Shown in pieces: positions 12,071-57,873 of a DNA stretch of 64,000 nucleotides. The first letter of the stretch is position 1. The number at the start of each line of letters is the position of its first letter. Location: positions 12,571 through 76,570 of the forward strand of contig CAVGEJ010000001.1 of the NCBI GenBank assembly GCA_963628215.1. Direction: 5' to 3'. A program made the translations under genes and the position numbers. Below the pieces are notes generated by a model. That model had not been told where the DNA came from, searched no databases, and saw only the letters and a program-made list of their open reading frames with translations. The DNA comes from Eubacterium sp. CAG:180. Lineage in GTDB: Bacteria > Bacillota > Clostridia > Oscillospirales > CAG-272.

Positions 12071-12082
12071 ATCGGTAAACCC

Positions 12083-23942: not shown

Positions 23943-24051
23943 AATATCGCTATCTCTCGCAGGCGGCACAAGATACGGAAACCCATGGCGCGACGTGCAC
24001 ACCCCCGCGTCTCCCGATAGCACAGCCGATATTACATTGAAGGAGGAAATC

Positions 24052-35980: not shown

Positions 35981-35982
35981 GC

Positions 35983-37659: not shown

Positions 37660-38824
37660 CCTTTGCGCCGATATCGGCTACAGAAGCATTAACCATATCG
37701 GGGAACAGCTCTGCGGAGACCATGTGGACGTGGTGGAGCAGGGGGACAATTCCACGGTCATTGTGCTGGCGGACGGTCTCGGAAGCGGCGTGAAGGCGAG
37801 CATTCTTTCCACGCTGACCTCCAAGATCATCTCCACCATGATGGCGGAAGGACTGACGCTCGAGGACTGCGTGGAGACCATTGCGCAGACCCTGCCGATC
37901 TGCAGCGTCCGCGGCGTGGCATATTCCACCTTTACCATCCTGCATCTGGTGGATAACCGCGAAATGGAACTGATCCAGTACGACAACCCGTTGGTGATTC
38001 TGTTGCGGGACGGCAAGAACTACGACTACCCCAAAACCGAGATGAACATCGGCGGAAAAAAGATCTATAAATCGGTGGTCAAGCTGTTGGAAAACGATAT
38101 CTTCGTTGCCATGAGCGACGGTTGCCCGCATGCGGGAATCGGTCTTGCCTACAATTTCGGTTGGAAGCGGGAGGACATCATCAGCTTTATGGAGACGGTT
38201 GCCATTGCGGGCTACACCGCAAAAACGCTGTCCACCATTCTGATCGATGAAGTCAACAAGCTTTACGAGCGAAAGCCCGGAGACGACGCCACCGCCTGTG
38301 TGGTTCGCATCCGTCGGCGCGAACCGATGAATATCCTGTTCGGTCCGCCGTCCAACCGCGACGACTGCAACCGCATGATGTCGCTCTTCTTCTCAAAGGA
38401 AGGCAAGCACATCGTCTGCGGCGGAACAACTTCGTCCATCGCGGCAAAATATCTCGGAAAACCGATCAAGGCAAGTCTGAATTTTGTCAAGAGCGATATT
38501 CCGCCGATTGCGGAAATCGAAGGGGTCGACCTCGTAACCGAAGGCGTTATCACCATCAACCGCGTTGTGGAATACGCCAAGGATTCGGTTGGGGAGAACC
38601 GCCTTTACGAAAAATGGAGTTTTGGGCACGACGGCGCGTCTCTGATCTGCCGGATGCTGTTTGAAGAAGCCACGGATATCAACTTCTTTGTTGGCAGAGC
38701 CATTAACCCGGCGCACCAGAACCCGGATCTGCCGATCAATTTCAACATCAAAATGAATCTGGTTGAAGAACTGTCCGCCTGCCTGCGCAAGATGGGAAAG
38801 CGGATCAAGGTCAGCTATTTCTGA
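37652..38824 (+). CDS. SpoIIE/PP2C-family serine phosphatase with an uncharacterised C-terminal domain
   Basis: GDHVDVVEQGDNSTVIVLADGLGSGVKASILS...AMSDG...GDDATACVVRI (PP2C metal-binding Asp pattern, aa 1-222). I do not recognise aa ~225-390. 8-nt overlap with hydS. Confidence 0.85.
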   Translation: MNDLCADIGYRSINHIGEQLCGDHVDVVEQGDNSTVIVLADGLGSGVKASILSTLTSKIISTMMAEGLTLEDCVETIAQTLPICSVRGVAYSTFTILHLVDNREMELIQYDNPLVILLRDGKNYDYPKTEMNIGGKKIYKSVVKLLENDIFVAMSDGCPHAGIGLAYNFGWKREDIISFMETVAIAGYTAKTLSTILIDEVNKLYERKPGDDATACVVRIRRREPMNILFGPPSNRDDCNRMMSLFFSKEGKHIVCGGTTSSIAAKYLGKPIKASLNFVKSDIPPIAEIEGVDLVTEGVITINRVVEYAKDSVGENRLYEKWSFGHDGASLICRMLFEEATDINFFVGRAINPAHQNPDLPINFNIKMNLVEELSACLRKMGKRIKVSYF

Positions 38825-38842
38825 GCCCACGGAGGGAAACAT

Positions 38843-40264
38843 ATGAGAAAATTCGATACAAAAGTCCAACATCTGAAGTACAAGGTACTCAGAGAGGTGG
38901 CAAGAGAGGCGTGGGCGGACCGTCTGGCACAGACCGCGATCGATATTCCGAAAACCATTGTGCCCGGCAAGATTCCCACCATGCGTTGCTGCGTTTACAA
39001 AGAGCGCGCAATTCTGGCGGAGCGGGTCAAAATCGCGATGGGGGGAGACCGGAACAACCCGAACGTGATTGAGGTCATCGACATCGCCTGCGACGAATGC
39101 CCGATGGGCGGCTACGAGGTGACCAACGCCTGCCGCGGATGTCTGGCGCACCGTTGCGAGGACGCTTGCCGCTTTGGCGCGATCACCTTTGACCAGAACC
39201 ATGTGGCGCACATTGACAAGACCAAATGCAAGGAGTGCGGCGGATGCGCGAAGGTTTGTCCTTACAGCGCAATCCACAACTACAAGCGCCCCTGCGAGAC
39301 CGCCTGCAAGGTCAAGGCGATTTCGATGGGCGAGGAAAAGCAGGCTTGCATTGACAACAACAAGTGCATTTCCTGCGGCGCATGCGTATACCAGTGCCCG
39401 TTTGGCGCAATTACGGACAAGTCCTTCATTCTCAAGGTGATTGACATTCTGAAAAACAGCCGCGAGGGCAAGGAATACAAGGTTTACGCCATTGTTGCGC
39501 CGTCGATTTCGAGCCAGTTCACCTATGCAAAGCTTGGGCAGGTGATTACGGGTTTGCGCGAACTCGGATTCCATACCGTCATTGAGGCGGCGCTTGGCGC
39601 TGACATGGTGGCGCAGGCGGAGTCCCGCGAGCTTGCCGAAAAGGGCTTCCTGACCAGTTCCTGCTGTCCCGCATTCGTTGACTACATCCACAAGAATTTC
39701 CCCGAACTGGAGCAGTTTGTCTCGCACAATCTCTCTCCGATGGCAACCATTGCGAAGTACCTCAAGGAGCATGAGCCGGACTGCAAGACGGTCTTTATCG
39801 GTCCTTGCACCGCAAAGAAGATGGAGGTACAGAAAGAGAGCGTCAGCCCGTACATTGACACGGCGATGACGTTTGAGGAACTGCAGGCGCTCTTTGACAG
39901 CCGCGATATTGATATCACGACGTTGGAAGAAGGCGTTCTGGACAATGCTTCCTACTTCGGCAGAATCTTTGCGCGCAGCGGCGGACTTTCGGATGCGGTT
40001 GCGGAGGGGTTGAAGGAGCAGGGGATCGATTTCCTGCTGAAGCCCTGTGCGTGCGACGGCATTGAGCAATGCAAGATCGCGCTTCTGCAAAAGAGCAAGA
40101 ATCGGTTGGACGCGAACTTCATTGAAGGCATGGCGTGTGTTGGCGGTTGCATTGGCGGTGCAGGCTGTCTGACGCACGGCGAAAAAAACAAAGCCGAGGT
40201 TGACAAGTACGGCAAGCAGGCGCTCGAAAAGACCATTGCCGATGCGGTTTCGATGTTGAAATAA
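38843..40264 (+). CDS. hydA: [FeFe]-hydrogenase, group B type (catalytic)
   Basis: The N-terminus MRKFDTKVQHLKYKVLREVA is followed by Cys-rich Fe-S modules (CKECGGCAKVCP, CISCGACVYQCP). H-cluster motifs are intact: TSSCCPAF, GPCTAKK, EGMACVGGCIGG. Confidence 0.9.
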   Translation: MRKFDTKVQHLKYKVLREVAREAWADRLAQTAIDIPKTIVPGKIPTMRCCVYKERAILAERVKIAMGGDRNNPNVIEVIDIACDECPMGGYEVTNACRGCLAHRCEDACRFGAITFDQNHVAHIDKTKCKECGGCAKVCPYSAIHNYKRPCETACKVKAISMGEEKQACIDNNKCISCGACVYQCPFGAITDKSFILKVIDILKNSREGKEYKVYAIVAPSISSQFTYAKLGQVITGLRELGFHTVIEAALGADMVAQAESRELAEKGFLTSSCCPAFVDYIHKNFPELEQFVSHNLSPMATIAKYLKEHEPDCKTVFIGPCTAKKMEVQKESVSPYIDTAMTFEELQALFDSRDIDITTLEEGVLDNASYFGRIFARSGGLSDAVAEGLKEQGIDFLLKPCACDGIEQCKIALLQKSKNRLDANFIEGMACVGGCIGGAGCLTHGEKNKAEVDKYGKQALEKTIADAVSMLK

Positions 40265-42222: not shown

Positions 42223-45192
42223 TTACTCCTTTCGGGAATCGTCCGAAGTCTTTTCCGCGTCCTGTTCTTTGGTCTCCGCCTTTTTGCGCGGAACTGTGGA
42301 AACCACGCCGCGCAGGATCGGAACGCGCCGCAGAACGGGGGAGAAGATGAGCAGGGCAAGGAACAGAAGAACCGAAATGCCCGAAATCGTCAGCCCCAAT
42401 ACCAACGTGCGCGGGCGGTAAACCAGTTGAATGTCATGCGTACCCGCGTCGCCGTCCACACGGAAGGCAACCAGTGCGCCGAGCGCTTTCACGGTCTCGA
42501 CTTCCTTGCCGTCCACCGTGACCTTCCACCCCGAATCATAGGCAAGGGTGGTCAGGATCAATTCATTGTCGCGGCTCGTTGTCACGCTTCCGTCAAAGGA
42601 ATGCTCGGTGTAGTCCTCGATGAGGAATTGATCGGAAGCAAGGCGCGCAAAGGCATCCTCGAACGCCGTTTTGTCGATCATGGCAATCACAGGTTCGGAT
42701 TTGACATAATAGATATCTTTTCCGGTCGGAGTCACGCGCAGGGTCAGCCTGTCACCTTTGGAATGCACGCCGAGCGACGCAATCCGCAGATTCTCTCCCG
42801 TGCCCCACTTGCCGCATTCGGTGTAATCGCCCGTTGTGTCGTTTGTCAACGTCAGCGTGACCTCGCGCGGGTACTTTGTGGGCAGATAGAAGAACACCTC
42901 GCCGTCCTGCGGCACTTCAAAGCTGTAAGTGATAACCGAGGAATCCGAAACGCTGCTGTAGCATGTATGCCTTTCGGCATAGTATGGCGCGCCCATTCCC
43001 ACATCGCTTTGCGTGACCTTCACGGGAACGAACAGATCCGCGCGCTCGTCTCCGAGCATCGCCGCAACCATGGCGTTTAGCCGCGTAAAGGGCGTGTAAT
43101 AGGGGTCGGTGTACTCGGCATTCCGAATGGTTTCGTCAATGCCCAGTTTGCCGTTGATAAAGGCTTTCAGTTTGTCAATCGCATTCCCGATTTTGCTTGC
43201 GTCCTCGGGCTTCTTTTCGGTATCCTCGTCGTCCTTTTTTTCGTCCTCCTTCGGCTCGACCGGCTTGTAGCCCAACTCAAAATCCAGCAGGCTGTCGCTC
43301 ACGCCGTAAGCAAGCGAGAGGGCGTAGGGGTTGCGATAGGCGGTGTAGCCGTTGACGGTATCGGAACAGTACGCCTCATACCAGTAGGTTTGCGAGGCAG
43401 ACCCCGTGTCGGAAATGATATACTTCAAGCCGAGCAGGGAATCGTTGATCGGAGTCCCGCCGAGATATTTGGACCAGTGCGACATGGAACTGTAACCCAT
43501 TTTGTCAAGGAACTTGATGGTTTCCTGATTGAGCGTGGAGGTTGAACCCGAAAGCCCGCGGATGTTCAGCGCCATGTTGTCGTTGAGTTTGCGGAAGATG
43601 GTCTTTTCCATGCGGTAAAAGCTTTGGTCGCTTTCCTGCACGGTCTCCACGATCGGGCGGGTGCGGTTCAGATAGTTGTTGTAGTAGCTGTATCTGGAGT
43701 AGACCACATCGTCGTCCAGTGCATTCATGCACCAAAGCCCGTTGAGGAAGCATTCGATTGCAACCACCGCAACCATCACCACGCTGATCACCTGCTTGTC
43801 TTTCCGCGAGCGGTAAAGTCCCAACACCGCGAGCCAGACGGCAATCAGAATCAGCGTAAACCAGATGCAGGTGTAATCGTTGGGCGCAAGATACTCGTTG
43901 TCGGGGTCGACGTACTTCTGTAGAATCACGCAAAGCAGAGCCAGAATTCCGCCCGTTCCCGCAACGGTTTTGAGCGATACGCTGTCAAACTCGTTCATTG
44001 CGCGGCAGGCAAGCACCGTGAGGATGAAGCAGAGCATGAAGCTGTAACGGTAATTGAGCCAGTTGGGGCGTTGGAAGCCGTGCCAGAGCAGGTCGGGAAC
44101 GGAAAGCGAGAAGGAGGCAACGAACAGGAAAATAAAGAGCGCCGCCGCAATCTTCTGCCGCATGGGATATTTGCGGGAGAGGAAATAGGAGGGGATCAAA
44201 AGCAGGGTCAGCACGCCGCAATAAACGAACGGATACCCCGCAGGGCGCACGGTATCGTAAGAGGACGGCAGGAATTTATAAAGCAGATCGAGGATGTCGA
44301 AATTGAAACTCCAGACCCATTTGGTTGTGGAGAACGTGCTCTTTCCGAAGCTGAGCGAATAGTAAGCGCCGAGCAGAATCACCGCCGCAATTCCGACGGC
44401 AAGCAGAGACCAGAACGCCACGCGCAAGCCGGAGCGGAGAAAATGGCAGCGCTCGTTATCCGGGTTGTGCTCGCGGTTCTCGGAATGTCCGAAGTAGCAG
44501 AGGAAAAAGTAGAAGAAGCAGTAGATGCAGACCATGTAGCCGATATAGAAGTTGCTGAACAGGGTAATCGCCAGAGAAACGGTATAGAGGCGGAATTTTC
44601 CCTTCTTGATCAGCGATTCCATTCCGAGCGTGATCATCGGCAGCCACATCATTGCGTCAATCCACATGGTGTTATGCTGTTGGACGATGCCGTAAGCCGA
44701 GAGCGCATAGCAGGTGGCGAACACCACAATTGCAGCTTTGTTCGGCTTTTGGGAAGTCTTGTGCATATAAAGTCCGAACGAACCGCCGCAGAGCGCGGTT
44801 TTGAGCAGGAACAGGAAGAGCAGTCCCTCAAGCATCCGATCCTGCGGGAAGAGCGCCAACAGGTAGGAAAGCGGACTGGCGAGGTAGTAGGCGTAAATGC
44901 CGAGGAATTCGCCGCCGAGCGCGCGGGAGAAGGAGTAGAGCAGATCCGCGTCGCCGTGAACGAAGTTCCGCAAAGCCTCAAAGAACCAGACGTACTGCCC
45001 GTTGAGGTCGAGAACCAACACGCTCCCGTCCCCGAGGGGGTAAAGTTCGCGGGAGAAATAAATCAGATACATCACAACCGCAGGAACCAACATGCACAGA
45101 AGCAGATAACCCCAATCGCCGAAACGGCGCTTTCGGGCTTGTCCTTCTGCGGGCAGAATGGCTTGTACGGTTCGGTTTACAGGACGGTTCAT
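42223..45192 (-). CDS. YfhO-family polytopic membrane protein (putative glycosyltransferase), 989 aa
   Basis: Start MNRPVNRTV (ATG 45192) after AAAGGAAT. Conserved YfhO N-terminus: YPLGDGSVLVLDLNGQYVWFFEALRNFVHGDADLLYSFSRALGGEFLG. Many TM helices, a large C-terminal extracytoplasmic region and a final TM. Confidence 0.85.
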   Translation of the reverse strand: MNRPVNRTVQAILPAEGQARKRRFGDWGYLLLCMLVPAVVMYLIYFSRELYPLGDGSVLVLDLNGQYVWFFEALRNFVHGDADLLYSFSRALGGEFLGIYAYYLASPLSYLLALFPQDRMLEGLLFLFLLKTALCGGSFGLYMHKTSQKPNKAAIVVFATCYALSAYGIVQQHNTMWIDAMMWLPMITLGMESLIKKGKFRLYTVSLAITLFSNFYIGYMVCIYCFFYFFLCYFGHSENREHNPDNERCHFLRSGLRVAFWSLLAVGIAAVILLGAYYSLSFGKSTFSTTKWVWSFNFDILDLLYKFLPSSYDTVRPAGYPFVYCGVLTLLLIPSYFLSRKYPMRQKIAAALFIFLFVASFSLSVPDLLWHGFQRPNWLNYRYSFMLCFILTVLACRAMNEFDSVSLKTVAGTGGILALLCVILQKYVDPDNEYLAPNDYTCIWFTLILIAVWLAVLGLYRSRKDKQVISVVMVAVVAIECFLNGLWCMNALDDDVVYSRYSYYNNYLNRTRPIVETVQESDQSFYRMEKTIFRKLNDNMALNIRGLSGSTSTLNQETIKFLDKMGYSSMSHWSKYLGGTPINDSLLGLKYIISDTGSASQTYWYEAYCSDTVNGYTAYRNPYALSLAYGVSDSLLDFELGYKPVEPKEDEKKDDEDTEKKPEDASKIGNAIDKLKAFINGKLGIDETIRNAEYTDPYYTPFTRLNAMVAAMLGDERADLFVPVKVTQSDVGMGAPYYAERHTCYSSVSDSSVITYSFEVPQDGEVFFYLPTKYPREVTLTLTNDTTGDYTECGKWGTGENLRIASLGVHSKGDRLTLRVTPTGKDIYYVKSEPVIAMIDKTAFEDAFARLASDQFLIEDYTEHSFDGSVTTSRDNELILTTLAYDSGWKVTVDGKEVETVKALGALVAFRVDGDAGTHDIQLVYRPRTLVLGLTISGISVLLFLALLIFSPVLRRVPILRGVVSTVPRKKAETKEQDAEKTSDDSRKE

Positions 45193-45413
45193 GGCTTTTC
45201 GATTCCTTTCTGCCCGGCAGAGCCGCCGGGAATGTGCTGTTTGATCGCTTTTTCGAGTTTCAGGCGATCCATCACCATATCGTGCCGACAGGTCTCGCAA
45301 CGCAGTCTGACTTCCGCACCAACGCGAAGCAATGCGAAGCGATCCCCGCCGCAGGGATGTTTTTTTCGAAGCACGAGGGTATCTCCCGCGCGCAAAAGAG
45401 GAATGCCCGCCAA
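45189..45413 (-). CDS. DUF951-family small protein
   Basis: ...RAGDTLVLRKKHPCGGDRFALLRVGAEVRLRCETCRHDMVMDRLKLEKAIK matches the DUF951 pattern (GD..KKPHPCG...R.GAD...C..C). The track ATG (45488) is upstream of the promoter, so I propose the TTG start at 45413. The stop overlaps the yfhO ATG (ATGA). Confidence 0.65.
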   Translation of the reverse strand: MAGIPLLRAGDTLVLRKKHPCGGDRFALLRVGAEVRLRCETCRHDMVMDRLKLEKAIKQHIPGGSAGQKGIEKP

Positions 45414-49674: not shown

Positions 49675-50466
49675 ATGAAACTGTTACTCAGAATCGCTTA
49701 TGTCGGCACTCGTTACGGCGGGTATCAGGTTCAGCCGAACGCGGACACGGTGCAGGCGCGGCTGAATCTCGCGGCGGAACGGCTCTTCGGATATCCCTGC
49801 GATATTGTGGGATGCAGTCGGACAGACAGCGGAGTTCACGCGCGCGAATTCTGCGCGGCGGTTACCAAGCGGGGGCGCGACAGTCTGGAGACCGATATCC
49901 CCGCCGCAAGGCTTCCGCTTGCCTTTTCGGCAAATCTGCCCGAGGACATCTGCGTATATGACACGTGTTTCGTCCCGTCGGATTTCCATCCGCGCTACGG
50001 CGTGGTGATGAAGGAATATCTCTATCGGATTCTGAACCGCGCGGTTCGCGACCCGTTTGAAACCGACCGCGCCTATCATCTGCCGAAACCGATTCCCGAA
50101 GCGGCGCTGGAGCAGATGAATCTTGCGGCAGAGCGCCTTTGCGGAACGCACGATTTCCGCGCGTTCATGGCGCAGGGCTCGAAGATTGCCGATACCGTGC
50201 GCACGGTCTATGCCTCCGAAGTCACCCGCGAGGGAGATATTCTCCTGTACCGCGTCCGCGCGGACGGTTTTCTTTACAACATGGTGCGGATTCTTGCGGG
50301 AACTCTGGTTGAGGTCGGGGAGGGGAAGCGCGCCGCCGGGGAAATCCCCGACATTCTCCGCTCGCTTGACCGCTCCCGCGCAGGACGAACCCTGCCTGCG
50401 TGCGGGCTGTATCTGAATCGGGTATTCTATCCCGAGAATCCATTCGGAAGGGAGGGAAACGGTTGA
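49675..50466 (+). CDS. truA: tRNA pseudouridine(38-40) synthase
   Basis: LRIAYVGTRYGGYQVQPN...GCSRTDSGVHA...FLYNMVRILAGTL. Confidence 0.95.
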   Translation: MKLLLRIAYVGTRYGGYQVQPNADTVQARLNLAAERLFGYPCDIVGCSRTDSGVHAREFCAAVTKRGRDSLETDIPAARLPLAFSANLPEDICVYDTCFVPSDFHPRYGVVMKEYLYRILNRAVRDPFETDRAYHLPKPIPEAALEQMNLAAERLCGTHDFRAFMAQGSKIADTVRTVYASEVTREGDILLYRVRADGFLYNMVRILAGTLVEVGEGKRAAGEIPDILRSLDRSRAGRTLPACGLYLNRVFYPENPFGREGNG

Positions 50467-51665
50467 AGCGAAGAAGCGCCCGTGTATCTGTCCGTCCCGA
50501 GCGCCCGCTTGACGCGTATTACGAAAGCATTTCCGAACGCTTCGGGATTACGCAGGTTCTGCTGTACCTTTCCCTGCTCGTGTTCGTTGTGCTGTCGCTA
50601 ATCGGGAATACGGGACTCCTGACGTATCAGAATTTCTACTACTTTTTTAAGGATCTCGGCGCGTCCGCCGAAACGGTGGACGTTCTCCACACCGACGCGC
50701 TGAGCTATCCCACCGACTCCGCGCAGAGTTTTACGCTCTACCGGCAGGGGCTTGCCATCGCGGGGAACACCTCGGTTACGGTCTTTACGCCGTCGGGCAG
50801 ACAGGCGATCAGCCAAAAGCTGCAATACGACAAACCGACCGCCGAAGGGTCTGGGAAATATCTGCTTGTCTACGACGCGGACGGCATGCAGTATTCGCTC
50901 TACAATTCCTACGCGCAGGTCTGGTCAGGCAAGAGCCGATACCCGATCCGAAGCGCGGCGGTCTCGGCTTCCGGCGCATACCTGTTGCTTTCCGCCTCGG
51001 ACGAATTCCCGTCGGAAATGGAACTTTACGACGACCGCTTTGACCGGATCGGCTATTTCACGCTTTCCTCCTACGTCACGGATGTTGCCATCAACCGCAA
51101 GGGAACCGTGTTCGCGTTCCTTGCTTCCGAGGTGCGGGACGGCGCATTTGCAACCTCCATTCGCATTTACGAAACGGGACGGAGCGAACCGGTAGCGGTC
51201 ACGCCGCTCGGAAACGGCTTGGGGCTTTCCTGCTCCTTTACCGATAACGGCAACCTGTCCGTAATCTGCGGCGACGGCGTTTATACCGTCTCTCCACGCG
51301 GAAATCTGTTGAACAGCTATGCGTTTGACGAAAAAACCATCCGCTCCGCCGACGGAAACGGGGACGGATGCGCTCTGATCCTTGCGGAAAACGATATTTC
51401 TTCCAAAAAATCCGCGATTGTATTTGACAAAAGCGGAAAAATCGTGTATCATGAAGCAATCAACGAAACGGCGGGAACGGTCAGGCTTTGCGGAAACGCA
51501 ATCTTTCTGCAATGCTCCGACGGAATCGAGCGCATCCGAACCGACAACGGGCATTCGGAAAAGTTCGTCTGCGTCACCGACGGGCGCTTCATGCTTGCCT
51601 ATGACGAAACCTGCGTTCTGCTCTGCTCGTCCAAGCGGGCGGTATTCTGCCGCTTCGGAACATAA
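50463..51665 (+). CDS. hypothetical N-terminally membrane-anchored protein (repetitive beta-rich ectodomain; DUF5711-like by memory)
   Basis: Proposed TTG start overlapping the truA stop (TTGA), after GGGAGGG. TM helix VLLYLSLLVFVVLSLI, then ~330 aa with recurrent short hydrophobic-turn segments. Confidence 0.65.
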   Translation: MKRRSARVSVRPERPLDAYYESISERFGITQVLLYLSLLVFVVLSLIGNTGLLTYQNFYYFFKDLGASAETVDVLHTDALSYPTDSAQSFTLYRQGLAIAGNTSVTVFTPSGRQAISQKLQYDKPTAEGSGKYLLVYDADGMQYSLYNSYAQVWSGKSRYPIRSAAVSASGAYLLLSASDEFPSEMELYDDRFDRIGYFTLSSYVTDVAINRKGTVFAFLASEVRDGAFATSIRIYETGRSEPVAVTPLGNGLGLSCSFTDNGNLSVICGDGVYTVSPRGNLLNSYAFDEKTIRSADGNGDGCALILAENDISSKKSAIVFDKSGKIVYHEAINETAGTVRLCGNAIFLQCSDGIERIRTDNGHSEKFVCVTDGRFMLAYDETCVLLCSSKRAVFCRFGT

Positions 51666-51695
51666 AACCGGAAATGAGAAAAGGAGAATTTCACC

Positions 51696-52394
51696 ATGCA
51701 GTACATTTTTGATATCTGCGCGCTTGTCATCGCGGCGGTCATCATTTTCAGCTGTGCGCGCAAAGGATTCTTTCTGACCGTGCTCAGCTTCTTCAAGTTC
51801 CTGCTTGCCGTCCTCGCGGCGTACTTCTTCGGCGGCGCGCTCGGCAATCTGCTCGGAAAAATGTTCATCAACGAAGCCGTCTACGGATCGGTTTCCAAGA
51901 AAATCACCAAAATTTATGAGAGTACCGCGGGAACGTTCAATGCGGAAAGCATCACGGAAGCAATTCCGAAATTCCTGCGTTCCGAGGCGCTGACGGAAAA
52001 GCTGAACAGCCTTGACGCCACGGGCGCGGAGTTGGCGGACGCCATGTCGCAAACCGTTGCGGGCGCATTGTCGGCGGTCATCTGCGCGGTGGTCGGCGCG
52101 ATTCTGATGTTCGTGATTGCAATGTTCGTTCTGACGGTTGTATATGCAATTCTCAAAGCGATCCGCTCGAAGTTCAAGCTGCTCGGACTTGCGGACGGCA
52201 TTCTCGGCGCGGTGCTCGGTTGCATGATCGCGTCGCTTGCGCTGATGCTGCTCGGCTCGCTCGCGAAGGTCTTTTTCGGAAACTCGGACGCTTATAACGC
52301 TTCCAAAATTCTGAAATTCTTCGGAAACGCAACGCTCGGAGACTTTTTCGGTTGGCTCAACCTCGGACATTGGATCGATAAACTCAACAGCTAA
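51696..52394 (+). CDS. cvpA: CvpA-family membrane protein
   Basis: MQYIFDICALVIAAVIIFSCARKGFFLTVLSFFKFLLAVLAAYFFGGALG is typical of a CvpA N-terminus. Additional TM helices at the C-terminus. Confidence 0.65.
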   Translation: MQYIFDICALVIAAVIIFSCARKGFFLTVLSFFKFLLAVLAAYFFGGALGNLLGKMFINEAVYGSVSKKITKIYESTAGTFNAESITEAIPKFLRSEALTEKLNSLDATGAELADAMSQTVAGALSAVICAVVGAILMFVIAMFVLTVVYAILKAIRSKFKLLGLADGILGAVLGCMIASLALMLLGSLAKVFFGNSDAYNASKILKFFGNATLGDFFGWLNLGHWIDKLNS

Positions 52395-52448: not shown

Positions 52449-54770
52449 ATGACCATGTGTTCACAATGCCACAAGCGCGTGGCAGTCGTGTTTATGACGC
52501 GGGTGGAAAACGGGGAAAAGACCACCCGGGGTCTTTGCATGAAATGCGCAAAGGAGTTGGGCGTTCCGATTGACAACATCGTCGGAAACGTGATCGACCA
52601 ACTCGGAATTTCCCCCGAACAATTGGAAAACGCCGAAAACGACCTCGGAGAAATGCTCGGACAGGCGCTCAAGCCCTCCGATTGCGACGATCCCGAGGAC
52701 GGCGGCGCGCCCGCCATCGACTTCCCGAAACTGTTCCGCGACGCGGGACTGGTTCCGCCCGAAGCGCCCAAGCCTGCAGACGGCGCACCCGCCGCAGACA
52801 AGGGCAAGAGCGACCGCAAGCGGGAAAAAGAGCAGAAAAAGCTGAAGTTCCTGACCACCTACTGCCGGAATCTGACCGACTTTGCGCGGAAAGGAAAGCT
52901 TGACAACATCATCGGGCGCGACCGGGAACTGGCGCGCGTGATTCAGATTCTCTGCCGCAGGCAGAAGAACAATCCCTGCCTGATCGGCGAGCCGGGCGTG
53001 GGAAAGACCGCGATTGCCGAGGCACTTGCCATCCGCATTGCGGCGGGAAATGTCCCGTACAAACTGCGCGGGAAGGAAATTTATCTGGTCGACATGACCG
53101 CGCTTGTTGCGGGAACGCAATTCCGCGGGCAGTTCGAATCCCGCATTCTCGGGCTTCTCGGCGAGGTGCGCGAGGTCGGCAATGCAATTCTTGTTATCGA
53201 CGAGGTGCACAACATCGTCGGAACGGGAGAAGCGGAGGGAAGCGTCAATGCGGCGAACATCCTCAAACCCGCGCTGTCGCGCGGCGAGGTGCAGGTCATC
53301 GGCGCAACCACACTGAACGAATACCGCAAGTATATCGAAAAGGATTCCGCACTGGAACGCCGTTTCCAACCCGTCACGGTAAACGAGCCGTCGGTGGACG
53401 AGTCGATGGAAATGCTGCAGGGCATCAAGCACTACTACGAGGAATTCCACGCCGTCACGATTCCCGACGAGGTTCTGCGGCGGGCGGTGGTGCTGTCCGA
53501 GCGCTATATCACCGACCGTTTCCTGCCGGACAAGGCAATCGACCTGATCGACGAGGCGGCGGCGCACCGTTCGCTTTCCTCGGCGGTTCTGACGGAAAGT
53601 TACGAAGTCCGCGACAAGCTTCTGGAACTCCGGAACAAGCGCGAAGCACTGGAGGGCGAGATCGCGGGCAACGCGCAGGTGGAGAACAGCCGGTACGAAG
53701 AGATTTCCAAGATTCAGTCCGAGGAATTGCGCCTGAGCGCACGGCTCGACGAACTCGAACCCGAAACGCACCGCATTGAACTGACCGAAAACGATATTGC
53801 CGACGTGATCGAGTTGTGGACAGGCGTTCCCGCAACCACGATTACCGAGAACGAATTCCGTCGGATCGACCGTCTTGAAGAACGTCTCAAGGAGCATATT
53901 GTGGGGCAGGACGCCGCTGTGGAAGCCGTGGCAAGAGCCATCAAACGGAGTCGCGCGGGGATTTCCTACAAGCGCAAACCCGTGTCCTTCATTTTTGCAG
54001 GACCGACGGGCGTCGGAAAGACCGAATTGGTCAAGGTGCTTGCAAACGATCTGTTCTGCTCGCCCGAAACGCTGATCCGTCTGGATATGTCGGAATTCAT
54101 GGAGAAGCATGCGGTATCCCGAATCATCGGCGCGCCTCCCGGATACGTCGGTTACGACGAGGCGGGACAGCTGACCGAGAAGATCCGCCGCAGACCCTAT
54201 TCGGTTGTGTTGTTTGACGAGATCGAAAAGGCGCACCCCGACGTGCTGAATATCCTGCTCCAGATTCTCGACGACGGCAGAATCACCGACGCGCGCGGAA
54301 AGACCGTCAACTTCGAAAATACCGTTATCGTCATGACCACAAACGCAGGCTCGGATCACTCTGCGGCAACGGCGGGCTTCAGCGCAAGCGAACAGACCGC
54401 CGCCGAGGACAAAACGCAAAAGGCGCTGTCCGCCTTCCTGCGCCCCGAGTTCCTCAACCGCGTGGATGAAATCATTACGTTCCGTCAGCTTGACCGCAAC
54501 GACTTTGTGCGCATCGCATCCATCATGCTCGGGGAACTTTCCGCGGCATTGGCGGAGAAGCACATCACGCTGACCGTGACCGACGCCGCCAAGGAACAGA
54601 TTGCGGATAAGTCCTATTCCCGCACCTACGGCGCGCGGAATATGCGGCGCTATATTCAAAAGGAAGTTGAGGACAGGCTCGCGGCAGAGTTGATCTCGGG
54701 CTACGAGCAGCATTACACGCAGGCGATTGTCGACGCAGACGCGGACGGCATCCGCGTTCGGTGTCTCTGA
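52449..54770 (+). CDS. ClpE-like Clp/Hsp100 AAA+ unfoldase (N-terminal zinc ribbon, two AAA modules)
   Basis: CSQCHKR...CMKCAKE zinc ribbon. D1: [15 protein letters not shown] / [11 protein letters not shown]. Short coiled-coil M region. D2: [15 protein letters not shown] / [21 protein letters not shown] is a possible ClpP-docking loop. Confidence 0.9.
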
Positions 54771-57448
54771 TGGGGATGGAGGAAAAACGCATCCGCTGGT
54801 GTCGCACAACGCCGCGGGACGCGCTGAAACTGCTCGAAAGCAACGGGCAGAGCGGGCTTTCTCATAAGGAAGCTTATGCAAGACTCCGGAAAAACGGACC
54901 GAACCGTTTCATGGAGCCTCCCAAGCAGGCTTACGGTATTCTGAAAAGCCTGCTTCGTGATCCCGTTCTGCTTCTGACTCTCTTGTGCGGGGTTCTGTCG
55001 CTGTGCTTTGACGAACTTCTGAGCGGTCTGCCGTTCCTGCTCCTGCTCGGTGTATGGAGCGGACTCTTCCTCGGGCGGCTGTTGCACACGATCGGGCGCT
55101 TCCAATCGGATTTTGCCTTTTTCGGCACGCCGTCGGTCACGGTTCTGCGGGAGGGGGAAGCCTTTCTGATTCCCGCCACGCGCGTGGTGCGCGGCGATGT
55201 CATCGTGCTTCACGAAGGGGATATCGTCCCGTGCGACTGCCGGTTGCTCTCGGGCGACGACCTGACCGTGCGCATGACATGGCGCGAGGGAGACAAGCCG
55301 ACCCCGCATCTCTACCGCAAAACCGCCGACCGTCTCTATGCGTTCGGCGACACCGCGCAAGCGCCCGATTTTGAAAATATGGTTTACGGCGGCTCGGAGA
55401 TTGTTGCGGGCAGCGCCGTTGCGCTCGCGGTCGAGTTGGGGGAGACCTCCTTTCTCGGCGCGATGGGCGAACGCTTCGGAAAGAACGTGCGGACGGTCAG
55501 GGGCGAAATGCTCGGCGGCATTCTGCCGTACTGCAAGCTGTTGTCCTTCGCTTCGCTTCTGCTCCTGTTTCTGGTCAGCATCGTGTCGCTGTTCGCCGCG
55601 CCGTCGGCGTACACCTCGCTGCGCGTTTTCCTGCCGGTCTGCGTCATCACCGCGTCGGCATCGGTCGGCGTAACCGGGCTGTACTTTACCGCACTGCTCT
55701 TCCGGAATCGCCGCGCGGCGGGGGCGGAAAAGCAGAAGCGAAACCGCGTTTACATCCGAACTGATATCGCAAACGAGACCCTGCCGTATCTGACCGATCT
55801 TGTGATTACCGACCGCTCCGCCTTCTCGGACGGCAGACTGCATCTGCGCGCGGGCTATACGGGGGACGGTGTGGTAACGGGCGGCGCGCCGCTTGCGGGG
55901 CTTGCCGAAGCCTTTGTTCTGCTTGCAAAGGCGCGCGAGGCGCTTCCCGCCGCGCAGTGCGACCGCTTTACCGAAACCGAGGACATGACCTATCTTTCCG
56001 AGCTGTTGCGGGCAAGCAAATTCGACCTCCACGCGCTTGATATCCGTCTCTCTGCCGTGAACCTGATTGCGGCGGGTGACGAGGAACTGTTGCACGTTGC
56101 CACCGCGACCGAGACCTTCCGCCTGCACGTCACGCACGGCGTGGGCGCGGTCACGGGGTGTTCCGCAATTCAGTCCGAGGGAGGCGTACTTTCCATGACC
56201 CCCGAGCGGTTGGAGCGCATTTTGCGATTCTGCGCACGCGAGGAGGACGCGGCGGGCAGTGTGCGGACAGTGGTCAAAGAGAAGAACGGGCGGTTTCTGC
56301 TCGTCGGTCTGCTTGCACTCGGCGAGGTATTCCTGCCAGACCTGAACGAGCGGTTGGACATGCTGAACCGGGCGGGCGTGCGGGTCTCAGTTCTTCTGCC
56401 GCATTCCCGCGAGGACTGCCTGCGGTACTTCCGCAACTGCTGTCCCGATCTTCCGATCGAAGAACCTGCGGCGCTTGAACAGGACAACGGCGCGGCAATC
56501 CGCATTGCGGCGGGCGCGGATCGGGATTATGTGACAGAATACCTGAAAAAGCTGAAGAAAAATAAGCGGACGGCGGCACTGCTGTGCAACCGCACCGACA
56601 ACCGGCAACTGCTTGGCGCGGCGGCGCTCCGCGTGGTCTGCGACGACTGCTTCGGGCTTCTGTGCGACAGCGGGGAAGCCCTGCCCGAGCGGATTCCGGT
56701 TGCCGATCTCACGGTGCGAGACGGATGCACACAGTCGGTGCGCAATTCCGCCGATCTGATTCTCTGCCGCGCGGGAGCGTCCGGCGGGGGAATCGCCGCG
56801 CTTGAACCGATTCTGCGCCGCTCCAAAGCCATGACATGGCGGTTGCGGGCGCTGCTCTGGAATTTCACGCTGCTCAAACTTGCGCGGATGCTCTTCTTTA
56901 CGCTCTGCGCGCTCTCGGGACTCGGACCGCCGACCGCCGCGGAAACGCTCTTCGTCTGCTTCGGCGGGGATTTGGCGGCGCTGTACGTTGCGCAAACGGG
57001 AAAATTGCAGCATCCCGAGCGCACGCCGTTCCGCCCCGATTACACCGGTCTGATGCGCTTCTTCCGCGACCGCAGAATCGCGGTGTGTACGGCAGTTCCG
57101 CCGCTTGCGATCTGGTTCGTTTCGCTGATTCTGCGCGTGACGGGACTGCTCTCGACGGAAGCCGCGCAGTCGCTCCCGATTCTCGGACTTGCGATTCTGC
57201 AGGTCGTACTTCTGACCTTTGCGGAGTCCGACGACGTGCGGATGCGGACTTCCGCAGGCTACGCAAGGCTTGCAGTGCTCCTGCTCGCGCCGCTGTTGCC
57301 GTCGGTTCTGCTGTCGGTTCTGATTCCTGCGGTCGGTAAGGTCACGGGGCTCGGGACATGGTCGCTCGCCTCGGGCTTTATGACGGTTTTCGCATTCCTT
57401 GCTTCCCTTGCGGGAACATTGCCGATCTTCCGCAAAAAAACGAAATAG
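54770..57448 (+). CDS. P-type (type II-like) cation ATPase homologue with degenerate catalytic motifs (probable pseudo-enzyme)
   Basis: Cation_ATPase_N-like GLSHKEAYARLRKNGPN. A-domain VLREGE...VRGDVIVLHEGDIVPCDCRLL. About 10 TM segments. However, DKTGT is replaced by DRSAF (55811-55825) and TGES by WREG. MxTGD is replaced by LLPHSRED, and GDGxND by CNRTDN. Start is ATG 54770 (TGATG overlap with clpE-like) or 54761/54776. Confidence 0.8.
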   Translation: MGMEEKRIRWCRTTPRDALKLLESNGQSGLSHKEAYARLRKNGPNRFMEPPKQAYGILKSLLRDPVLLLTLLCGVLSLCFDELLSGLPFLLLLGVWSGLFLGRLLHTIGRFQSDFAFFGTPSVTVLREGEAFLIPATRVVRGDVIVLHEGDIVPCDCRLLSGDDLTVRMTWREGDKPTPHLYRKTADRLYAFGDTAQAPDFENMVYGGSEIVAGSAVALAVELGETSFLGAMGERFGKNVRTVRGEMLGGILPYCKLLSFASLLLLFLVSIVSLFAAPSAYTSLRVFLPVCVITASASVGVTGLYFTALLFRNRRAAGAEKQKRNRVYIRTDIANETLPYLTDLVITDRSAFSDGRLHLRAGYTGDGVVTGGAPLAGLAEAFVLLAKAREALPAAQCDRFTETEDMTYLSELLRASKFDLHALDIRLSAVNLIAAGDEELLHVATATETFRLHVTHGVGAVTGCSAIQSEGGVLSMTPERLERILRFCAREEDAAGSVRTVVKEKNGRFLLVGLLALGEVFLPDLNERLDMLNRAGVRVSVLLPHSREDCLRYFRNCCPDLPIEEPAALEQDNGAAIRIAAGADRDYVTEYLKKLKKNKRTAALLCNRTDNRQLLGAAALRVVCDDCFGLLCDSGEALPERIPVADLTVRDGCTQSVRNSADLILCRAGASGGGIAALEPILRRSKAMTWRLRALLWNFTLLKLARMLFFTLCALSGLGPPTAAETLFVCFGGDLAALYVAQTGKLQHPERTPFRPDYTGLMRFFRDRRIAVCTAVPPLAIWFVSLILRVTGLLSTEAAQSLPILGLAILQVVLLTFAESDDVRMRTSAGYARLAVLLLAPLLPSVLLSVLIPAVGKVTGLGTWSLASGFMTVFAFLASLAGTLPIFRKKTK

Positions 57449-57502
57449 AGCGGAGCGCGCCCGCATATACTGTACCGAGCCTATCGGATAAGGAGAAAGG
57501 GT

Positions 57503-57817
57503 ATGAAACGGTACAGTACGGCGGAATTGCGGAAACTGGAAATTGTCAATCTGTGCGACGGCGCACGGCTCGGCTACGCGGAAGATTTCGAATTTGAGGC
57601 GGAAGGGGATTGCTCGCGCATTCTCTCGCTGATTATCTCGGGCAGTTGCGGCTTTCTCGGGATCGGCAGGGAGGACGATCTGGTTATCCCGTGGTGTCGC
57701 GTGGAGTGCATCGGAGAAGATACCATTCTGGTAAAGCTTACGCCGCAGGAGTTCTCAAGCTGTCTCTGCGGCAGAAAAAGCGGCGGACGGCATCTGTTCG
57801 GCAAGCGCAAATGTTAA
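57503..57817 (+). CDS. ylmC: YlmC/YmxH-family (PRC-barrel) sporulation-associated protein
   Basis: STAELRKLEIVNLCDGARLGYAEDFEFE...LIISG....LGIGREDDLVIPWCRVECIGEDTILVK. Confidence 0.8.
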   Translation: MKRYSTAELRKLEIVNLCDGARLGYAEDFEFEAEGDCSRILSLIISGSCGFLGIGREDDLVIPWCRVECIGEDTILVKLTPQEFSSCLCGRKSGGRHLFGKRKC

Positions 57818-57844: not shown

Positions 57845-57873
57845 TTGAAAAAGGCGACGGAATATGGTATAAT
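57845..57873 (+). promoter_or_regulatory. rpsB-tsf promoter
   Basis: TTGAAA (57845-57850), 17 nt, TGG-TATAAT (57868-57873). About 140-nt leader. Confidence 0.55.

What the first reader, a model, noticed from the sequence alone, without database searches (positions are those of the whole stretch)
54770..57448. P-type ATPase homologue in which every catalytic signature is degenerate
Fold-level features of a type II P-type ATPase are clear:
- The N-terminal GLSHKEAYARLRKNGPN.
- The actuator-domain VLREGE...GDVIVLHEGDIVPCDCRLL.
- GSAVALAVELGETSFLG.
- SADLIL...hinge.
- About 10 TM helices.

The invariant motifs are all changed:
- LTGES becomes MTWREGD.
- (C/S)DKTGT becomes ITDRSAF; the Asp is kept but K, T, G and T are lost.
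- DPPR becomes EVFLPD.
- MxTGD becomes LLPHSRED.
- TGDGxNDxPAL becomes CNRTDNRQLL.
- The N-domain looks shortened: ~165 aa between the Asp and the hinge, versus >200 in typical members by memory.

The frame is intact over ~890 codons with normal codon usage, so this looks like a maintained pseudo-enzyme rather than a decaying gene. Its start overlaps the stop of the ClpE-like unfoldase.
Basis: partly seen in the sequence, partly recalled or inferred. Interest (0 to 1): 0.6.

Follow-up and report, generated by a model that had tools for sequence, protein, structure and literature searches.

The report
Dead ion-pump homologue paired with ClpE
This gene encodes a full-length, well-conserved copy of an ATP-driven ion pump that has lost every residue needed to use ATP. 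It belongs to an undescribed family of such "dead pumps" in uncultured gut Clostridia, almost always encoded directly after a ClpE-type protein-unfolding ATPase.

Summary
ORF 54770-57448 (+) is intact at 892 aa. By sequence, only the N-terminal third matches P-type ATPase models, yet the predicted structure matches the whole P2/P3 pump fold with 10 TM helices.

- **Motifs:** TGES, PEGL, DKTGT, KGAPE, DPPR, TGD and GDGxND are all replaced.
- **The Asp:** this copy's "kept" Asp is not a family feature; that column is Gly in 72% of 212 relatives.
- **Family-wide loss:** 0 of 181 family members carry DKTG or GDGxND, against 40 of 40 canonical controls.
- **Not a pseudogene:** dN/dS is 0.08-0.10 in every domain, and the ORF is intact in about 50 species-level MAGs.
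- **Clp linkage:** 50 of 53 family loci have a ClpE-type unfoldase gene directly upstream (here TGATG stop/start overlap). None of 27 canonical-pump loci does.
- **Pore:** an Arg replaces the M5 cation-binding Glu opposite the retained M6 Asp.

Best reading: a maintained pseudo-pump acting as a non-catalytic membrane partner of ClpE. The pseudoenzyme status is shown; the role is inferred. I found no description in the literature, and public records call it "cation-transporting P-type ATPase". I rate it a new variant of a known kind, interest about 0.6.

The parts
54770..57448 (+). Pseudo-P-type ATPase ORF, 892 aa. Alternative starts are GTG 54761 and ATG 54776; the latter matches the start used by most relatives.
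   Evidence: ORF; domain models; fold; purifying selection
54806..55000 (+). Cation_ATPase_N domain (aa 13-77), including the conserved GLSxKEAxxRLxxxGxN
   Evidence: PF00690, E 9e-9; conservation
55130..55654 (+). Actuator (A) domain plus M3 (aa 121-295). This is the best-conserved part: GDVxxLxxGDIVPCDCRLL and ENMVYGGSE.
   Evidence: PF00122, E 6e-16; conservation profile
55274..55303 (+). Site of the lost TGES dephosphorylation loop (aa 169-178, MTWREGDKPT)
   Evidence: canonical T-G-E-S aligns to gap/R, E, G, D. No residue in these family columns reaches canonical identity.
55655..55678 (+). M4 site of the lost PEGL motif (aa 296-303, SASVGVTG). The ion-binding Glu is replaced by Gly300.
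55799..55843 (+). Degenerate phosphorylation loop (aa 344-358, LVITDRSAFSDGRLH). It replaces xCxDKTGTLTxNxM, followed by the family-specific (S/T)DGxxH.
   Evidence: Column of D348: Gly 153 / Asp 44 of 212. Column of T347: hydrophobic.
56129..56149 (+). N-domain site of the lost KGAPE nucleotide-binding motif (aa 454-460, VTHGVGA), with a 2-residue deletion
56318..56341 (+). Site of the lost DPPR motif (aa 517-524, LGEVFLPD)
56390..56413 (+). Site of the lost TGD(N/H) motif (aa 541-548, VLLPHSRE)
56579..56614 (+). Site of the lost GDGxNDxPAL Mg2+-binding motif (aa 604-615, LLCNRTDNRQLL)
56633..56734 (+). Family-specific insertion of about 25 aa in the P domain, Cys-rich in this copy (C624, C627, C632, C653)
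   Evidence: (gap in canonical pumps)
56744..56803 (+). Hinge (aa 659-678, NSADLILCRAGASGGGIAAL). Canonical ADxxL-TDDNF is replaced by a 5-residue insertion plus a conserved GGG (G673 and G674 at 96%).
56885..56887 (+). Arg706 in M5, at the column of the cation-binding Glu (SERCA E771 by my own numbering knowledge). Arg in 162 of 212 family members.
56969..56971 (+). Asp734 in M6, the retained canonical M6 Asp. Asp 142 + Glu 44 of 212 in the family; Asp 11 of 12 in canonical pumps.
52449..54770 (+). ClpE-type AAA+ unfoldase, 773 aa: N-terminal C4 zinc ribbon, two AAA+ modules and an AGF ClpP-docking tripeptide. Its stop codon overlaps the pseudo-pump start.
51696..52394 (+). CvpA-like membrane protein, part of the conserved upstream block
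50400..51665 (+). DUF5711 membrane-anchored protein, part of the conserved upstream block
57503..57817 (+). YlmC/YmxH-family PRC-barrel protein with its own strong Shine-Dalgarno sequence. It lies downstream in the closer relatives only.

Best explanation
The ORF encodes a structurally complete but catalytically dead P2-type P-type ATPase, a "pseudo-pump". It is one member of a single-origin, previously undescribed family found only in uncultured gut Clostridia.

Shown here:
- The A, P and N domains and 10 TM helices are retained.
- Every residue needed for ATP binding, aspartyl-phosphate formation, Mg2+ coordination and dephosphorylation is replaced, both in this copy and family-wide.
- The gene is under strong purifying selection.
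- It sits at the 3' end of a conserved same-strand block, truA - DUF5711 - CvpA-like - ClpE-type unfoldase - pseudo-pump. Its start overlaps or abuts the clpE stop and has no Shine-Dalgarno sequence of its own.

Inferred:
- It no longer pumps. Arg706 (M5) replaces the cation-binding Glu and probably pairs with the retained Asp734 (M6), plugging the former ion site like a built-in cation.
- It is made together with ClpE by translational coupling.
- It works as a non-enzymatic membrane partner of ClpE(P): an anchor, receptor or regulator that brings or gates unfoldase activity at the membrane. The conserved cytoplasmic headpiece, especially the A domain, would serve as the interaction surface.

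Sub-confidences: maintained pseudo-enzyme about 0.9; co-expressed with ClpE about 0.7; physical or functional ClpE partner about 0.35-0.4.
For: Fold: the AF2 model has pLDDT 87.3 and pTM 0.86. Foldseek matches SPCA1, LMCA1, MgtA and Na,K-ATPase over about 940 columns, with E down to 9e-32, TM 0.5-0.62 and 12-16% identity. hhalign of the family against canonical pumps gives probability 100%, E 7e-58.

Catalytic loss: motif columns. 0 of 181 family members have DKTG or GDGxND, against 40 of 40 controls. Pfam Hydrolase is absent. TIGR01494 scores 26 bits against a 62-bit cut-off.

Selection: dN/dS is 0.079 (L001) and 0.100 (L003), including 0.10-0.11 for the P/N-like region. ORFs are intact in about 50 species.

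Family size and single origin: at least 150 full-length representatives at 50% identity have E<1e-88. One tree split separates 212 family sequences from 12 canonical sequences.

Clp linkage: 50 of 53 family loci have the Clp gene directly upstream on the same strand, with a gap of 3-185 nt; 0 of 27 canonical loci do. The linkage persists down to 57-60% Clp identity, after the downstream YlmC/rpsB neighbours are lost. All 39 full-length partner Clps have the zinc ribbon and an xGF loop. The junction is a TGATG overlap with no SD, whereas the next gene has AAGGAGA. No terminator-like site lies between the genes on the + strand.

Ion site: R706 is Arg in 162 of 212; D734 is Asp or Glu in 186 of 212. 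The analogous TM5 Arg / TM6 Asp pair in the plant H+-ATPase AHA2 is described in PMC10654040.
Against: - No direct evidence of a ClpE/pseudo-pump contact; complex prediction was not possible with these tools.
- All linked loci come from one related clade (rpsB 85-99% identical). Adjacency could therefore be inherited gene order rather than functional coupling.
- One locus (L027) has the pseudo-pump without clp upstream.
- The whole truA-to-pseudo-pump block is conserved, so the partner could equally be the CvpA-like or DUF5711 protein.
- The Arg706-Asp734 pairing rests on alignment columns only; no coordinates were available to measure it.
- About a quarter of family members keep a Glu at the M4 position, so some branches may still bind an ion.
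- The AF2 model resembles E1 states (TM 0.57-0.62) more than E2 states (0.46-0.53). That gives no sign of a locked A-P contact.
Confidence: 0.45

Rival explanations
1. The pseudo-pump has a Clp-independent role. It could be a passive ion or proton leak or channel, an ion or voltage sensor, or a purely structural membrane protein that uses the retained M6 Asp / M5 Arg and the intact fold. On this view, the position next to clpE is inherited gene order within one clade.
For: The upstream block truA-DUF5711-CvpA-clp is conserved as a whole. L027 keeps the pseudo-pump without clp. The M6 Asp is retained, and Glu is present at the M4 position in 52 of 212 members. All loci come from related gut Clostridia.
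Against: The clp adjacency outlasts the downstream synteny. The start codon overlaps the clp stop and lacks its own SD. The cytoplasmic A domain, not the membrane core, is the most conserved part, which is unexpected for a mere channel.
Confidence: 0.3
2. It is a sporulation- or envelope-related membrane component that works with the neighbouring YlmC/YmxH, CvpA-like and DUF5711 proteins. ClpE would be only one of several cluster members, or a bystander.
For: The downstream gene matches TIGR02888, the YlmC/YmxH sporulation family. CvpA-like and DUF5711 membrane proteins are in the same conserved block.
Against: YlmC adjacency is lost in about 11 more distant family loci that keep clp. The ylmC-like gene has its own strong SD. 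No sporulation evidence exists for these uncultured organisms.
Confidence: 0.12
3. It is still an active ATP-driven transporter that uses non-canonical catalytic residues, for example D348 as the phospho-acceptor in this copy.
For: D348 aligns with the catalytic Asp in two of four alignments. The overall fold is intact.
Against: That column is Gly in 72% of the family, and close relatives toggle between Asp and Gly. The motif Lys, Thr, Gly and Thr, the TGES loop, the KGAPE Lys, the TGD motif, the GDGxND Asp residues and the conserved P-domain Lys are all gone. The HAD-type core model is failed.
Confidence: 0.04
4. It is a decaying pseudogene of a former cation pump.
For: All catalytic motifs are lost. 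It diverges fast relative to its neighbours: 22-93% identity where Clp is 57-96%.
Against: The ORF is intact over 892 codons here and in about 50 species. dN/dS is 0.08-0.10 in all domains. The AF2 model is confident. Family-specific motifs are conserved: (S/T)DGxxH, the GGG hinge, N203 and R706.
Confidence: 0.01

Closest known systems
Bacterial and eukaryotic P2-type Ca2+ pumps (LMCA1 of Listeria, SPCA1, SERCA) and the P3B pump MgtA
   Same: Same overall architecture: Cation_ATPase_N, A domain, Rossmann-like P domain with an inserted N domain, and 10 TM helices. These are the best sequence and structure matches. The conserved A-domain core GDxxxLxxGDxVPAD(C/A)RLL and the M6 Asp are shared.
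   Different: TGES, PEGL, DKTGT, KGAPE, DPPR, TGD and GDGxND are all lost. The N domain is about 35 aa shorter. There is a 25-aa insertion before the hinge and a 5-aa insertion with GGG in the hinge. The M5 Glu is replaced by Arg. Identity is only 12-17%.
P3A plasma-membrane H+-ATPases (AHA2, Pma1)
   Same: An Arg in TM5 facing an Asp in TM6 within the membrane core (AHA2 Arg655/Asp684, PMC10654040). This resembles the family's R706/D734 pair. NCBIfam's second-best N-terminal hit is the IIIA H+-ATPase model.
   Different: P3A pumps are fully catalytic. Positional equivalence of the Arg was not tested: R706 aligns with the Glu column of P2 pumps, and I could not align it to AHA2 directly. The family's closest canonical relatives by profile search are Firmicute Ca2+-type pumps.
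Degenerate P4-ATPase-like domain of the Plasmodium guanylate cyclase GC-beta
   Same: A precedent for a P-type ATPase module that has lost most signature residues yet is retained in a functional protein (PMC6592433).
   Different: That case is eukaryotic, P4-type, and fused to a cyclase as one domain of a larger enzyme. Here the dead pump is a free-standing bacterial protein of P2 type, forming its own large family linked to a Clp unfoldase.
Operon-encoded Clp partners such as McsA/McsB (encoded with ClpC) and MecA (encoded elsewhere), in Bacillus (analogy from my own knowledge)
   Same: McsA/McsB are partner proteins encoded in the same operon as a Clp/Hsp100 unfoldase. The N-terminal zinc ribbon of this ClpE-type protein matches the McsA zinc-finger model.
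   Different: Known adaptors are small soluble proteins. A 10-TM pseudo-pump as a Clp partner has no precedent that I could find, and the interaction is not demonstrated.

Membership tests
P-type ATPase superfamily (E1-E2 ATPases) | Actuator domain and N-terminal domain recognisable by sequence (PF00122, PF00690) | tested here: met
   PF00122 at 59 bits (cut-off 28.1); PF00690 at 35.3 bits (cut-off 20.4)
P-type ATPase superfamily (E1-E2 ATPases) | Global fold: A, P and N domains plus a 10-helix membrane domain (P2/P3 type) | tested here: met
   pLDDT 87; full-length Foldseek matches to SPCA1, LMCA1 and MgtA; hhalign probability 100% over 829 columns.
P-type ATPase superfamily (E1-E2 ATPases) | DKTGT motif with the phosphorylated Asp | tested here: not met
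   the sequence is ITDRSAF. The family column is Gly 153 / Asp 44 of 212. 0 of 181 members have DKTG, against 40 of 40 controls.
P-type ATPase superfamily (E1-E2 ATPases) | TGES (A-domain dephosphorylation loop) | tested here: not met
   replaced by W-REGD; no conserved Glu in register
P-type ATPase superfamily (E1-E2 ATPases) | P-domain Mg2+/phosphate site: TGD, GDGxNDxP, DPPR | tested here: not met
   LPHS, CNRTDNRQ and EVFL. No Pfam Hydrolase hit.
P-type ATPase superfamily (E1-E2 ATPases) | N-domain nucleotide site (KGAPE Lys, adenine-stacking Phe) | tested here: not met
   THG--V with a 2-residue deletion; canonical EIPF aligns to NLIA
P-type ATPase superfamily (E1-E2 ATPases) | Membrane ion site: M4 PEGL Glu, M5 Asn/Glu, M6 Asn/Asp | tested here: not met
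   M4 Glu to Gly, M5 Asn to Lys (family Gln), M5 Glu to Arg, M6 Asn to Cys (family Gly). Only the M6 Asp is kept.
P-type ATPase superfamily (E1-E2 ATPases) | NCBIfam core model TIGR01494 (HAD-IC P-type ATPase) at or above its cut-off | tested here: not met
   26.2 bits against a 62.3-bit cut-off. All subfamily equivalogs score 11-51 bits against cut-offs of 346-975.
P-type ATPase superfamily (E1-E2 ATPases) | Forms an acid-stable aspartyl-phosphate intermediate; vanadate-sensitive ATPase | not testable with these tools
   Needs a biochemical assay
ClpE-type Hsp100/Clp unfoldase (the upstream neighbour) | N-terminal C4 zinc ribbon, two AAA+ modules, ClpP-docking xGF loop | tested here: met
   AAA + AAA_lid_9 + AAA_2 + ClpB_D2-small domains. 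A CxxC...CxxC motif and an (A/V/I/L)GF tripeptide are present in 39 of 39 partner genes.
Pseudogene | Frame disruptions or relaxed selection (dN/dS near 1) | tested here: not met
   intact ORFs; dN/dS 0.08-0.10

The most novel reading that the evidence does not exclude
A free-standing, catalytically dead P-type pump has been repurposed as the dedicated membrane receptor of a ClpE-type unfoldase, possibly together with the CvpA-like and DUF5711 membrane proteins of the same block. This would give abundant gut Clostridia a previously unknown machine for extracting or degrading membrane proteins. It would be an FtsH-like function assembled from a soluble Clp ATPase and a pseudo-pump.
Probability: 0.25. 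Interest if true: 0.8.

Novelty: new variant of a known kind. Interest (0 to 1): 0.62.

Why it matters
P-type ATPases are among the best-studied membrane enzymes. I found almost nothing on catalytically dead members, and nothing for bacteria, in full-text searches. The closest precedent found is a degenerate domain inside a Plasmodium cyclase.

Here a whole family is maintained under strong purifying selection. It comprises at least 150 clusters at 50% identity and about 50 species-level genomes, and it occurs in bacteria that are very common in human and animal gut metagenomes. That implies the pump scaffold has a selectable non-catalytic job.

The near-constant coupling to a ClpE-type unfoldase gives a concrete, testable hypothesis for how soluble Clp machines might be directed to the membrane.

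There is also a practical point. Public records label these proteins "cation-transporting P-type ATPase". Metabolic and transport reconstructions of these gut Clostridia will therefore credit them with a cation pump they almost certainly lack.

Tried and rejected
- **Pseudogene reading:** rejected by dN/dS and ORF integrity.
- **Mis-registration of motifs:** rejected by three independent alignments.
- **Defence-system association:** PADLOC gives no hit for the pseudo-pump, DUF5711, CvpA-like or YlmC-like proteins, and only generic AAA+ hits for Clp.
- **RNA elements:** no Rfam family reaches its gathering score anywhere in the window.
- **AFDB fold search for UniProt or cultured members:** the library was unavailable.
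- **Exact-sequence look-ups of the window's own pseudo-pump and of P0339 (100% identical to the window's Clp):** not on record. The 98%-identical P0001 was found in human gut metagenome assemblies with identical synteny.
- **Homologue search with Clp,** meant to find named or cultured taxa and test co-occurrence: it returned only near-identical (>=79%) unnamed sequences and was uninformative.
- **Profile search with distant family members:** limited by the word prefilter. It mainly showed that the nearest canonical relatives are Firmicute Ca2+-type pumps, and that no listed family member is in UniRef.
- **First NJ tree:** distances were saturated (NaN) and the rooting was inappropriate. It was redone with capped distances.
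- **Out-of-register motif matches:** occasional TGES, TGD or PEGL string matches in family members are out of register and treated as chance. L078 has a chance DKTG at residue 514 of a 741-aa ORF.
- **A paralogous canonical pump in the window:** none among the large ORFs checked.

Full report
**1. What is in the sequence**

An uninterrupted ORF runs on the + strand from 54761 (GTG) / 54770 (ATG) / 54776 (ATG) to the stop at 57448. It is 892 aa from 54770.

The upstream 773-aa Clp gene ends at 54770. The junction reads CTC-TGA-TGG, so the ATG shares its A with the TGA stop. No Shine-Dalgarno-like sequence precedes either candidate ATG. The next gene downstream (57503) has AAGGAGA.

The gene has higher G+C (0.62-0.635) and a negative AT skew compared with its neighbours. 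This fits a Leu/Ala/Gly/Arg-rich membrane protein. Given the conserved synteny below, it is not evidence of recent transfer.

**2. Homology and fold**

Pfam recognises only Cation_ATPase_N (aa 13-77) and E1-E2_ATPase (aa 121-295). Nothing covers the remaining 600 residues at E<=1.

NCBIfam models for every P-type subfamily hit only the N-terminal third, at 11-51 bits against cut-offs of 346-975. The core model TIGR01494 gives 26 bits against a cut-off of 62. phmmer against PDB sequences finds Ca2+ and Mg2+ pumps, again over residues about 20-350 only.

Even so, an AlphaFold2 model built on a 31-sequence family alignment is confident (pLDDT 87.3, pTM 0.86). It shows an A domain, a Rossmann-type P domain with an inserted N domain, and ten membrane helices.

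Foldseek against the PDB returns only P2/P3 pumps over the whole length: SPCA1, LMCA1, MgtA, Na,K-, H,K- and SERCA pumps. E-values reach 9e-32, TM-scores are 0.46-0.62, and identity is 12-16%. Profile-profile comparison of the family with 20 canonical pumps gives probability 100%, E 7e-58, and 829 aligned columns spanning residues 12-891.

So the whole protein is a P-type ATPase homologue, not just its first third.

**3. The catalytic signatures**

| Canonical motif | In this protein |
|---|---|
| TGES | W-REGD |
| M4 PEGL | SVGV |
| DKTGTLT | (T)DRSAFS |
| KGAPE | THG--V, with a two-residue deletion |
| DPPR | EVFL |
| TGD(H/N) | LPHS |
| GDGxNDxPAL | CNRTDNRQLL |
| Conserved P-domain Lys | Val588 |
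| Hinge TDDNF | five-residue insertion plus GGG |

The one ambiguity is a single-residue register at the phosphorylation site. phmmer against LMCA1 and the small MAFFT put D348 on the catalytic Asp. hhalign and the large MAFFT put T347 there and D348 on the Lys.

It does not matter for the conclusion. Across 212 family members the D348 column is Gly 153 / Asp 44, and the T347 column is hydrophobic. Close relatives of this very gene toggle between ITDRSAF, IMDRAAF and VVGRAAF.

As a string test, 0 of 181 family proteins contain DKTG or GDGxND. All 40 canonical pumps recovered in the same search contain both.

The span from D348 to the DPPR-equivalent residue is 171 aa, against 207 aa in a canonical reference. 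This confirms a shortened N domain.

**4. The membrane domain is remodelled, not merely decayed**

In M5 the cation-binding Glu column holds Arg706, which is Arg in 162 of 212 members. The Asn column holds Lys in this copy and Gln in most of the family. In M6 the Asn is lost, but the Asp is kept (Asp734; Asp 142 + Glu 44 of 212). In M4 the PEGL Glu is Gly here, although 52 of 212 members keep a Glu.

A buried Arg facing the retained M6 Asp resembles the TM5 Arg / TM6 Asp pair of plant H+-ATPases (PMC10654040). I infer, but could not measure, that the guanidinium group fills the former ion site.

**5. It is a maintained gene and a real family**

A first search found 32 full-length relatives at 98-28% identity. 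All carry only PF00690 and PF00122.

An exhaustive profile search of 1.84 billion representatives gave 1544 proteins at E<1e-30. The best 150 are nearly all full length and have E<1e-88. Canonical pumps can also reach E of about 1e-90 with a broader profile. I therefore claim only "at least 150 clusters at 50% identity".

A scan of one genome per GTDB species returned 80 loci, of which 53 are family members. Where the contig allows, all have intact ORFs of about 850-1100 aa. All are metagenome-assembled genomes labelled Clostridia, Eubacteriales, Oscillospiraceae, "Ruminococcus" or "Lachnospiraceae". They come from human, deer, goat, sheep, buffalo and chicken guts.

No cultured organism and no UniRef entry appeared among the listed hits. 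The only public names found are "cation-transporting P-type ATPase [Clostridia bacterium]". The 98%-identical protein lies in human gut metagenome assemblies with the same gene order.

dN/dS against the two unsaturated orthologues is 0.079 and 0.100. Every region is at or below 0.12, including the motif-less P/N region at 0.10-0.11. For comparison, the Clp gene gives 0.03-0.05.

A neighbour-joining tree places the 12 canonical pumps in one clade, separated from all 212 family members by a single split. This is consistent with one loss event, within the limits of the canonical sampling.

Several family-specific positions are conserved at or near 80% or more: W10, D64, N203/M204 in ENM(V/L)YGGS, (S/T)DGxxH just after the dead phosphorylation loop, E380, D419, R426, and G673-G674. 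R706 is Arg in 76%. This is what a protein with a new, non-catalytic constraint would look like. The most conserved segment of all is the A-domain sheet GDVxxLxxGDIVPCDCRLL.

**6. Genomic context**

The window shows a same-strand run with short gaps:
- ECF-transporter genes (ABC ATPase, CbiQ)
- truA
- DUF5711 membrane protein
- CvpA-like membrane protein
- Clp
- pseudo-pump
- YlmC/YmxH-family PRC-barrel protein

A strong promoter-like site at 57845-57873 then precedes rpsB-tsf. No terminator-like hairpin on the + strand separates Clp, the pseudo-pump and ylmC.

The Clp protein is ClpE-type. It has an N-terminal C4 zinc ribbon that also hits the McsA zinc-finger model, two AAA+ modules, a D2-small domain, and an AGF tripeptide where ClpC carries its ClpP-docking VGF (the VGF comparison is my own knowledge).

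Across the 80 genome loci:
- 50 of 53 family loci have this Clp gene directly upstream on the same strand, with a gap of 3-185 nt.
- One (L040) has it 568 nt upstream.
- One (L020) has no upstream DNA.
- One (L027) is a genuine exception, with an unrelated 560-aa gene upstream.
- None of 27 loci encoding canonical DKTG pumps has a Clp neighbour.

All 39 full-length partner Clps keep the zinc ribbon and an xGF loop.

The upstream block truA-DUF5711-CvpA-Clp persists down to 59% Clp identity. The downstream YlmC/rpsB neighbours are lost in about 11 of the more distant loci. The Clp linkage is therefore the most persistent one.

The caveat is that all these genomes belong to one related group (rpsB 85-99% identical). 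Part of the signal is shared ancestry.

**7. Most likely mechanism**

Shown: the protein cannot run the Post-Albers cycle. It has no nucleotide site, no phospho-acceptor context, no Mg2+ ligands and no TGES. It is nevertheless kept intact under purifying selection, and it is encoded at the end of a conserved block immediately after a ClpE-type unfoldase, with a stop/start overlap.

Inferred: it is co-translated with ClpE. Its ion pathway is plugged by the Arg706-Asp734 pair. It also serves as a non-enzymatic membrane partner (anchor, receptor or gate) for ClpE(P), with the conserved headpiece as the docking surface.

| Claim | Confidence |
|---|---|
| Maintained pseudo-enzyme | about 0.9 |
| Co-expression with ClpE | about 0.7 |
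| ClpE-partner role | about 0.35-0.4 |

Rival readings:
- A Clp-independent channel, sensor or structural role, with adjacency being inherited synteny: about 0.3.
- A sporulation or envelope role with YlmC, CvpA and DUF5711: about 0.12.
- Residual non-canonical catalysis: about 0.04.
- Pseudogene: about 0.01.

The AF2 model resembles E1 states slightly better than E2 states. This gives no support for a locked A-P contact and is not weighed heavily.

**8. Comparison with what is known**

The protein works like nothing characterised. By descent it is a P2-type pump, and its closest canonical relatives are Firmicute Ca2+-type "cation-translocating" ATPases.

It fails five of the defining sequence features of the P-type ATPase family, and it fails NCBI's core model. 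I therefore file it as a homologue with the P-type fold, not as a P-type ATPase in the enzymatic sense.

[quoted passage not shown] That case is a eukaryotic P4-type domain fused to a cyclase.

A 2023 survey of open questions in the field notes undescribed prokaryotic diversity. Term searches of its text turned up no mention of dead pumps (PMC10654040). Full-text searches for P-type ATPase pseudoenzymes, inactive or degenerate bacterial members, FUPA families in Firmicutes, and ClpE with P-type ATPases found nothing relevant.

**9. Verdict**

This is a new variant of a known kind: a large, single-origin, purifying-selected pseudo-pump family in uncultured gut Clostridia, genetically coupled to a ClpE-type unfoldase. 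Interest is about 0.6. The pseudoenzyme status is solid and unusual for this superfamily. Its function remains an inference that the listed experiments could settle.

Noticed in passing
window 52449-54770 (+): The Clp unfoldase is ClpE-type. Its first 38 residues form a C4 zinc ribbon that also matches the McsA (arginine-kinase activator) zinc-finger model. It carries AGF at the ClpP-docking loop position. Both features are conserved in 39 of 39 orthologues next to pseudo-pumps.
   Followed up: partly
window 49675-52394 (+); loci L001-L073: truA, a DUF5711 single-pass membrane protein and a CvpA-like membrane protein form a block with clpE. The block is conserved down to about 59% Clp identity. 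DUF5711 and the CvpA-like protein are uncharacterised here and could be part of the same functional module.
   Followed up: partly
window 56633-56734 (+), aa 622-655 of the pseudo-pump: A family-specific insertion before the hinge is Cys-rich in this copy (C624, C627, C632, C653: VVCDDCFGLLCDS...DGC). Only the CD dipeptide and the last Cys recur in close relatives. A possible metal or redox site was not evaluated.
   Followed up: no
window 54500-57500: The pseudo-pump gene has higher G+C (0.62-0.635) and negative AT skew (-0.06 to -0.2). Its neighbours clpE and rpsB-tsf have G+C 0.52-0.60 and positive AT skew. This probably reflects membrane-protein amino-acid composition rather than foreign origin, given the conserved synteny.
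   Followed up: partly
L027 1-4626: This is the only family locus with enough upstream DNA that lacks clp. A 560-aa unrelated ORF precedes the pseudo-pump, while YlmC-like and rpsB still follow. It could be a real rearrangement or a MAG assembly chimera.
   Followed up: partly
L040 (JAGHTD010000169.1): The record is titled Candidatus Colimorpha enterica, which NCBI taxonomy places in Bacteroidales. Yet the locus carries the Clostridia-type truA-DUF5711-CvpA-clpE-pseudo-pump block. This suggests a taxonomy or binning problem.
   Followed up: no
L005, L038, L052 (family ORFs of 985, 1074 and 1107 aa); L078 (741 aa): Some family members carry large insertions or a shortened form. L078 also has an out-of-register DKTG at residue 514. 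The domain content of the extra segments was not examined.
   Followed up: no
window 57845-57873 (+): A strong sigma-70-like promoter (TTGAAA, 17-nt spacer, TG-TATAAT) lies upstream of rpsB. It marks the end of the clpE/pseudo-pump/ylmC transcription unit and the start of rpsB-tsf.
   Followed up: no
window 23995-26226, 31975-34656, 35854-40264, 42223-45300: The rest of the window is core anaerobe metabolism: NrdD anaerobic ribonucleotide reductase, a bifunctional AdhE-type aldehyde/alcohol dehydrogenase, two [FeFe]-hydrogenase-like proteins and a YfhO membrane protein. No second P-type ATPase was found among the large ORFs checked.
   Followed up: partly
window 10451-13855 (+), 1134 aa: This long ORF has no Pfam hit at E<=1e-5. 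It overlaps two long ORFs on the opposite strand (10403-12070 and 12083-13801), so the real coding strand is unresolved.
   Followed up: no
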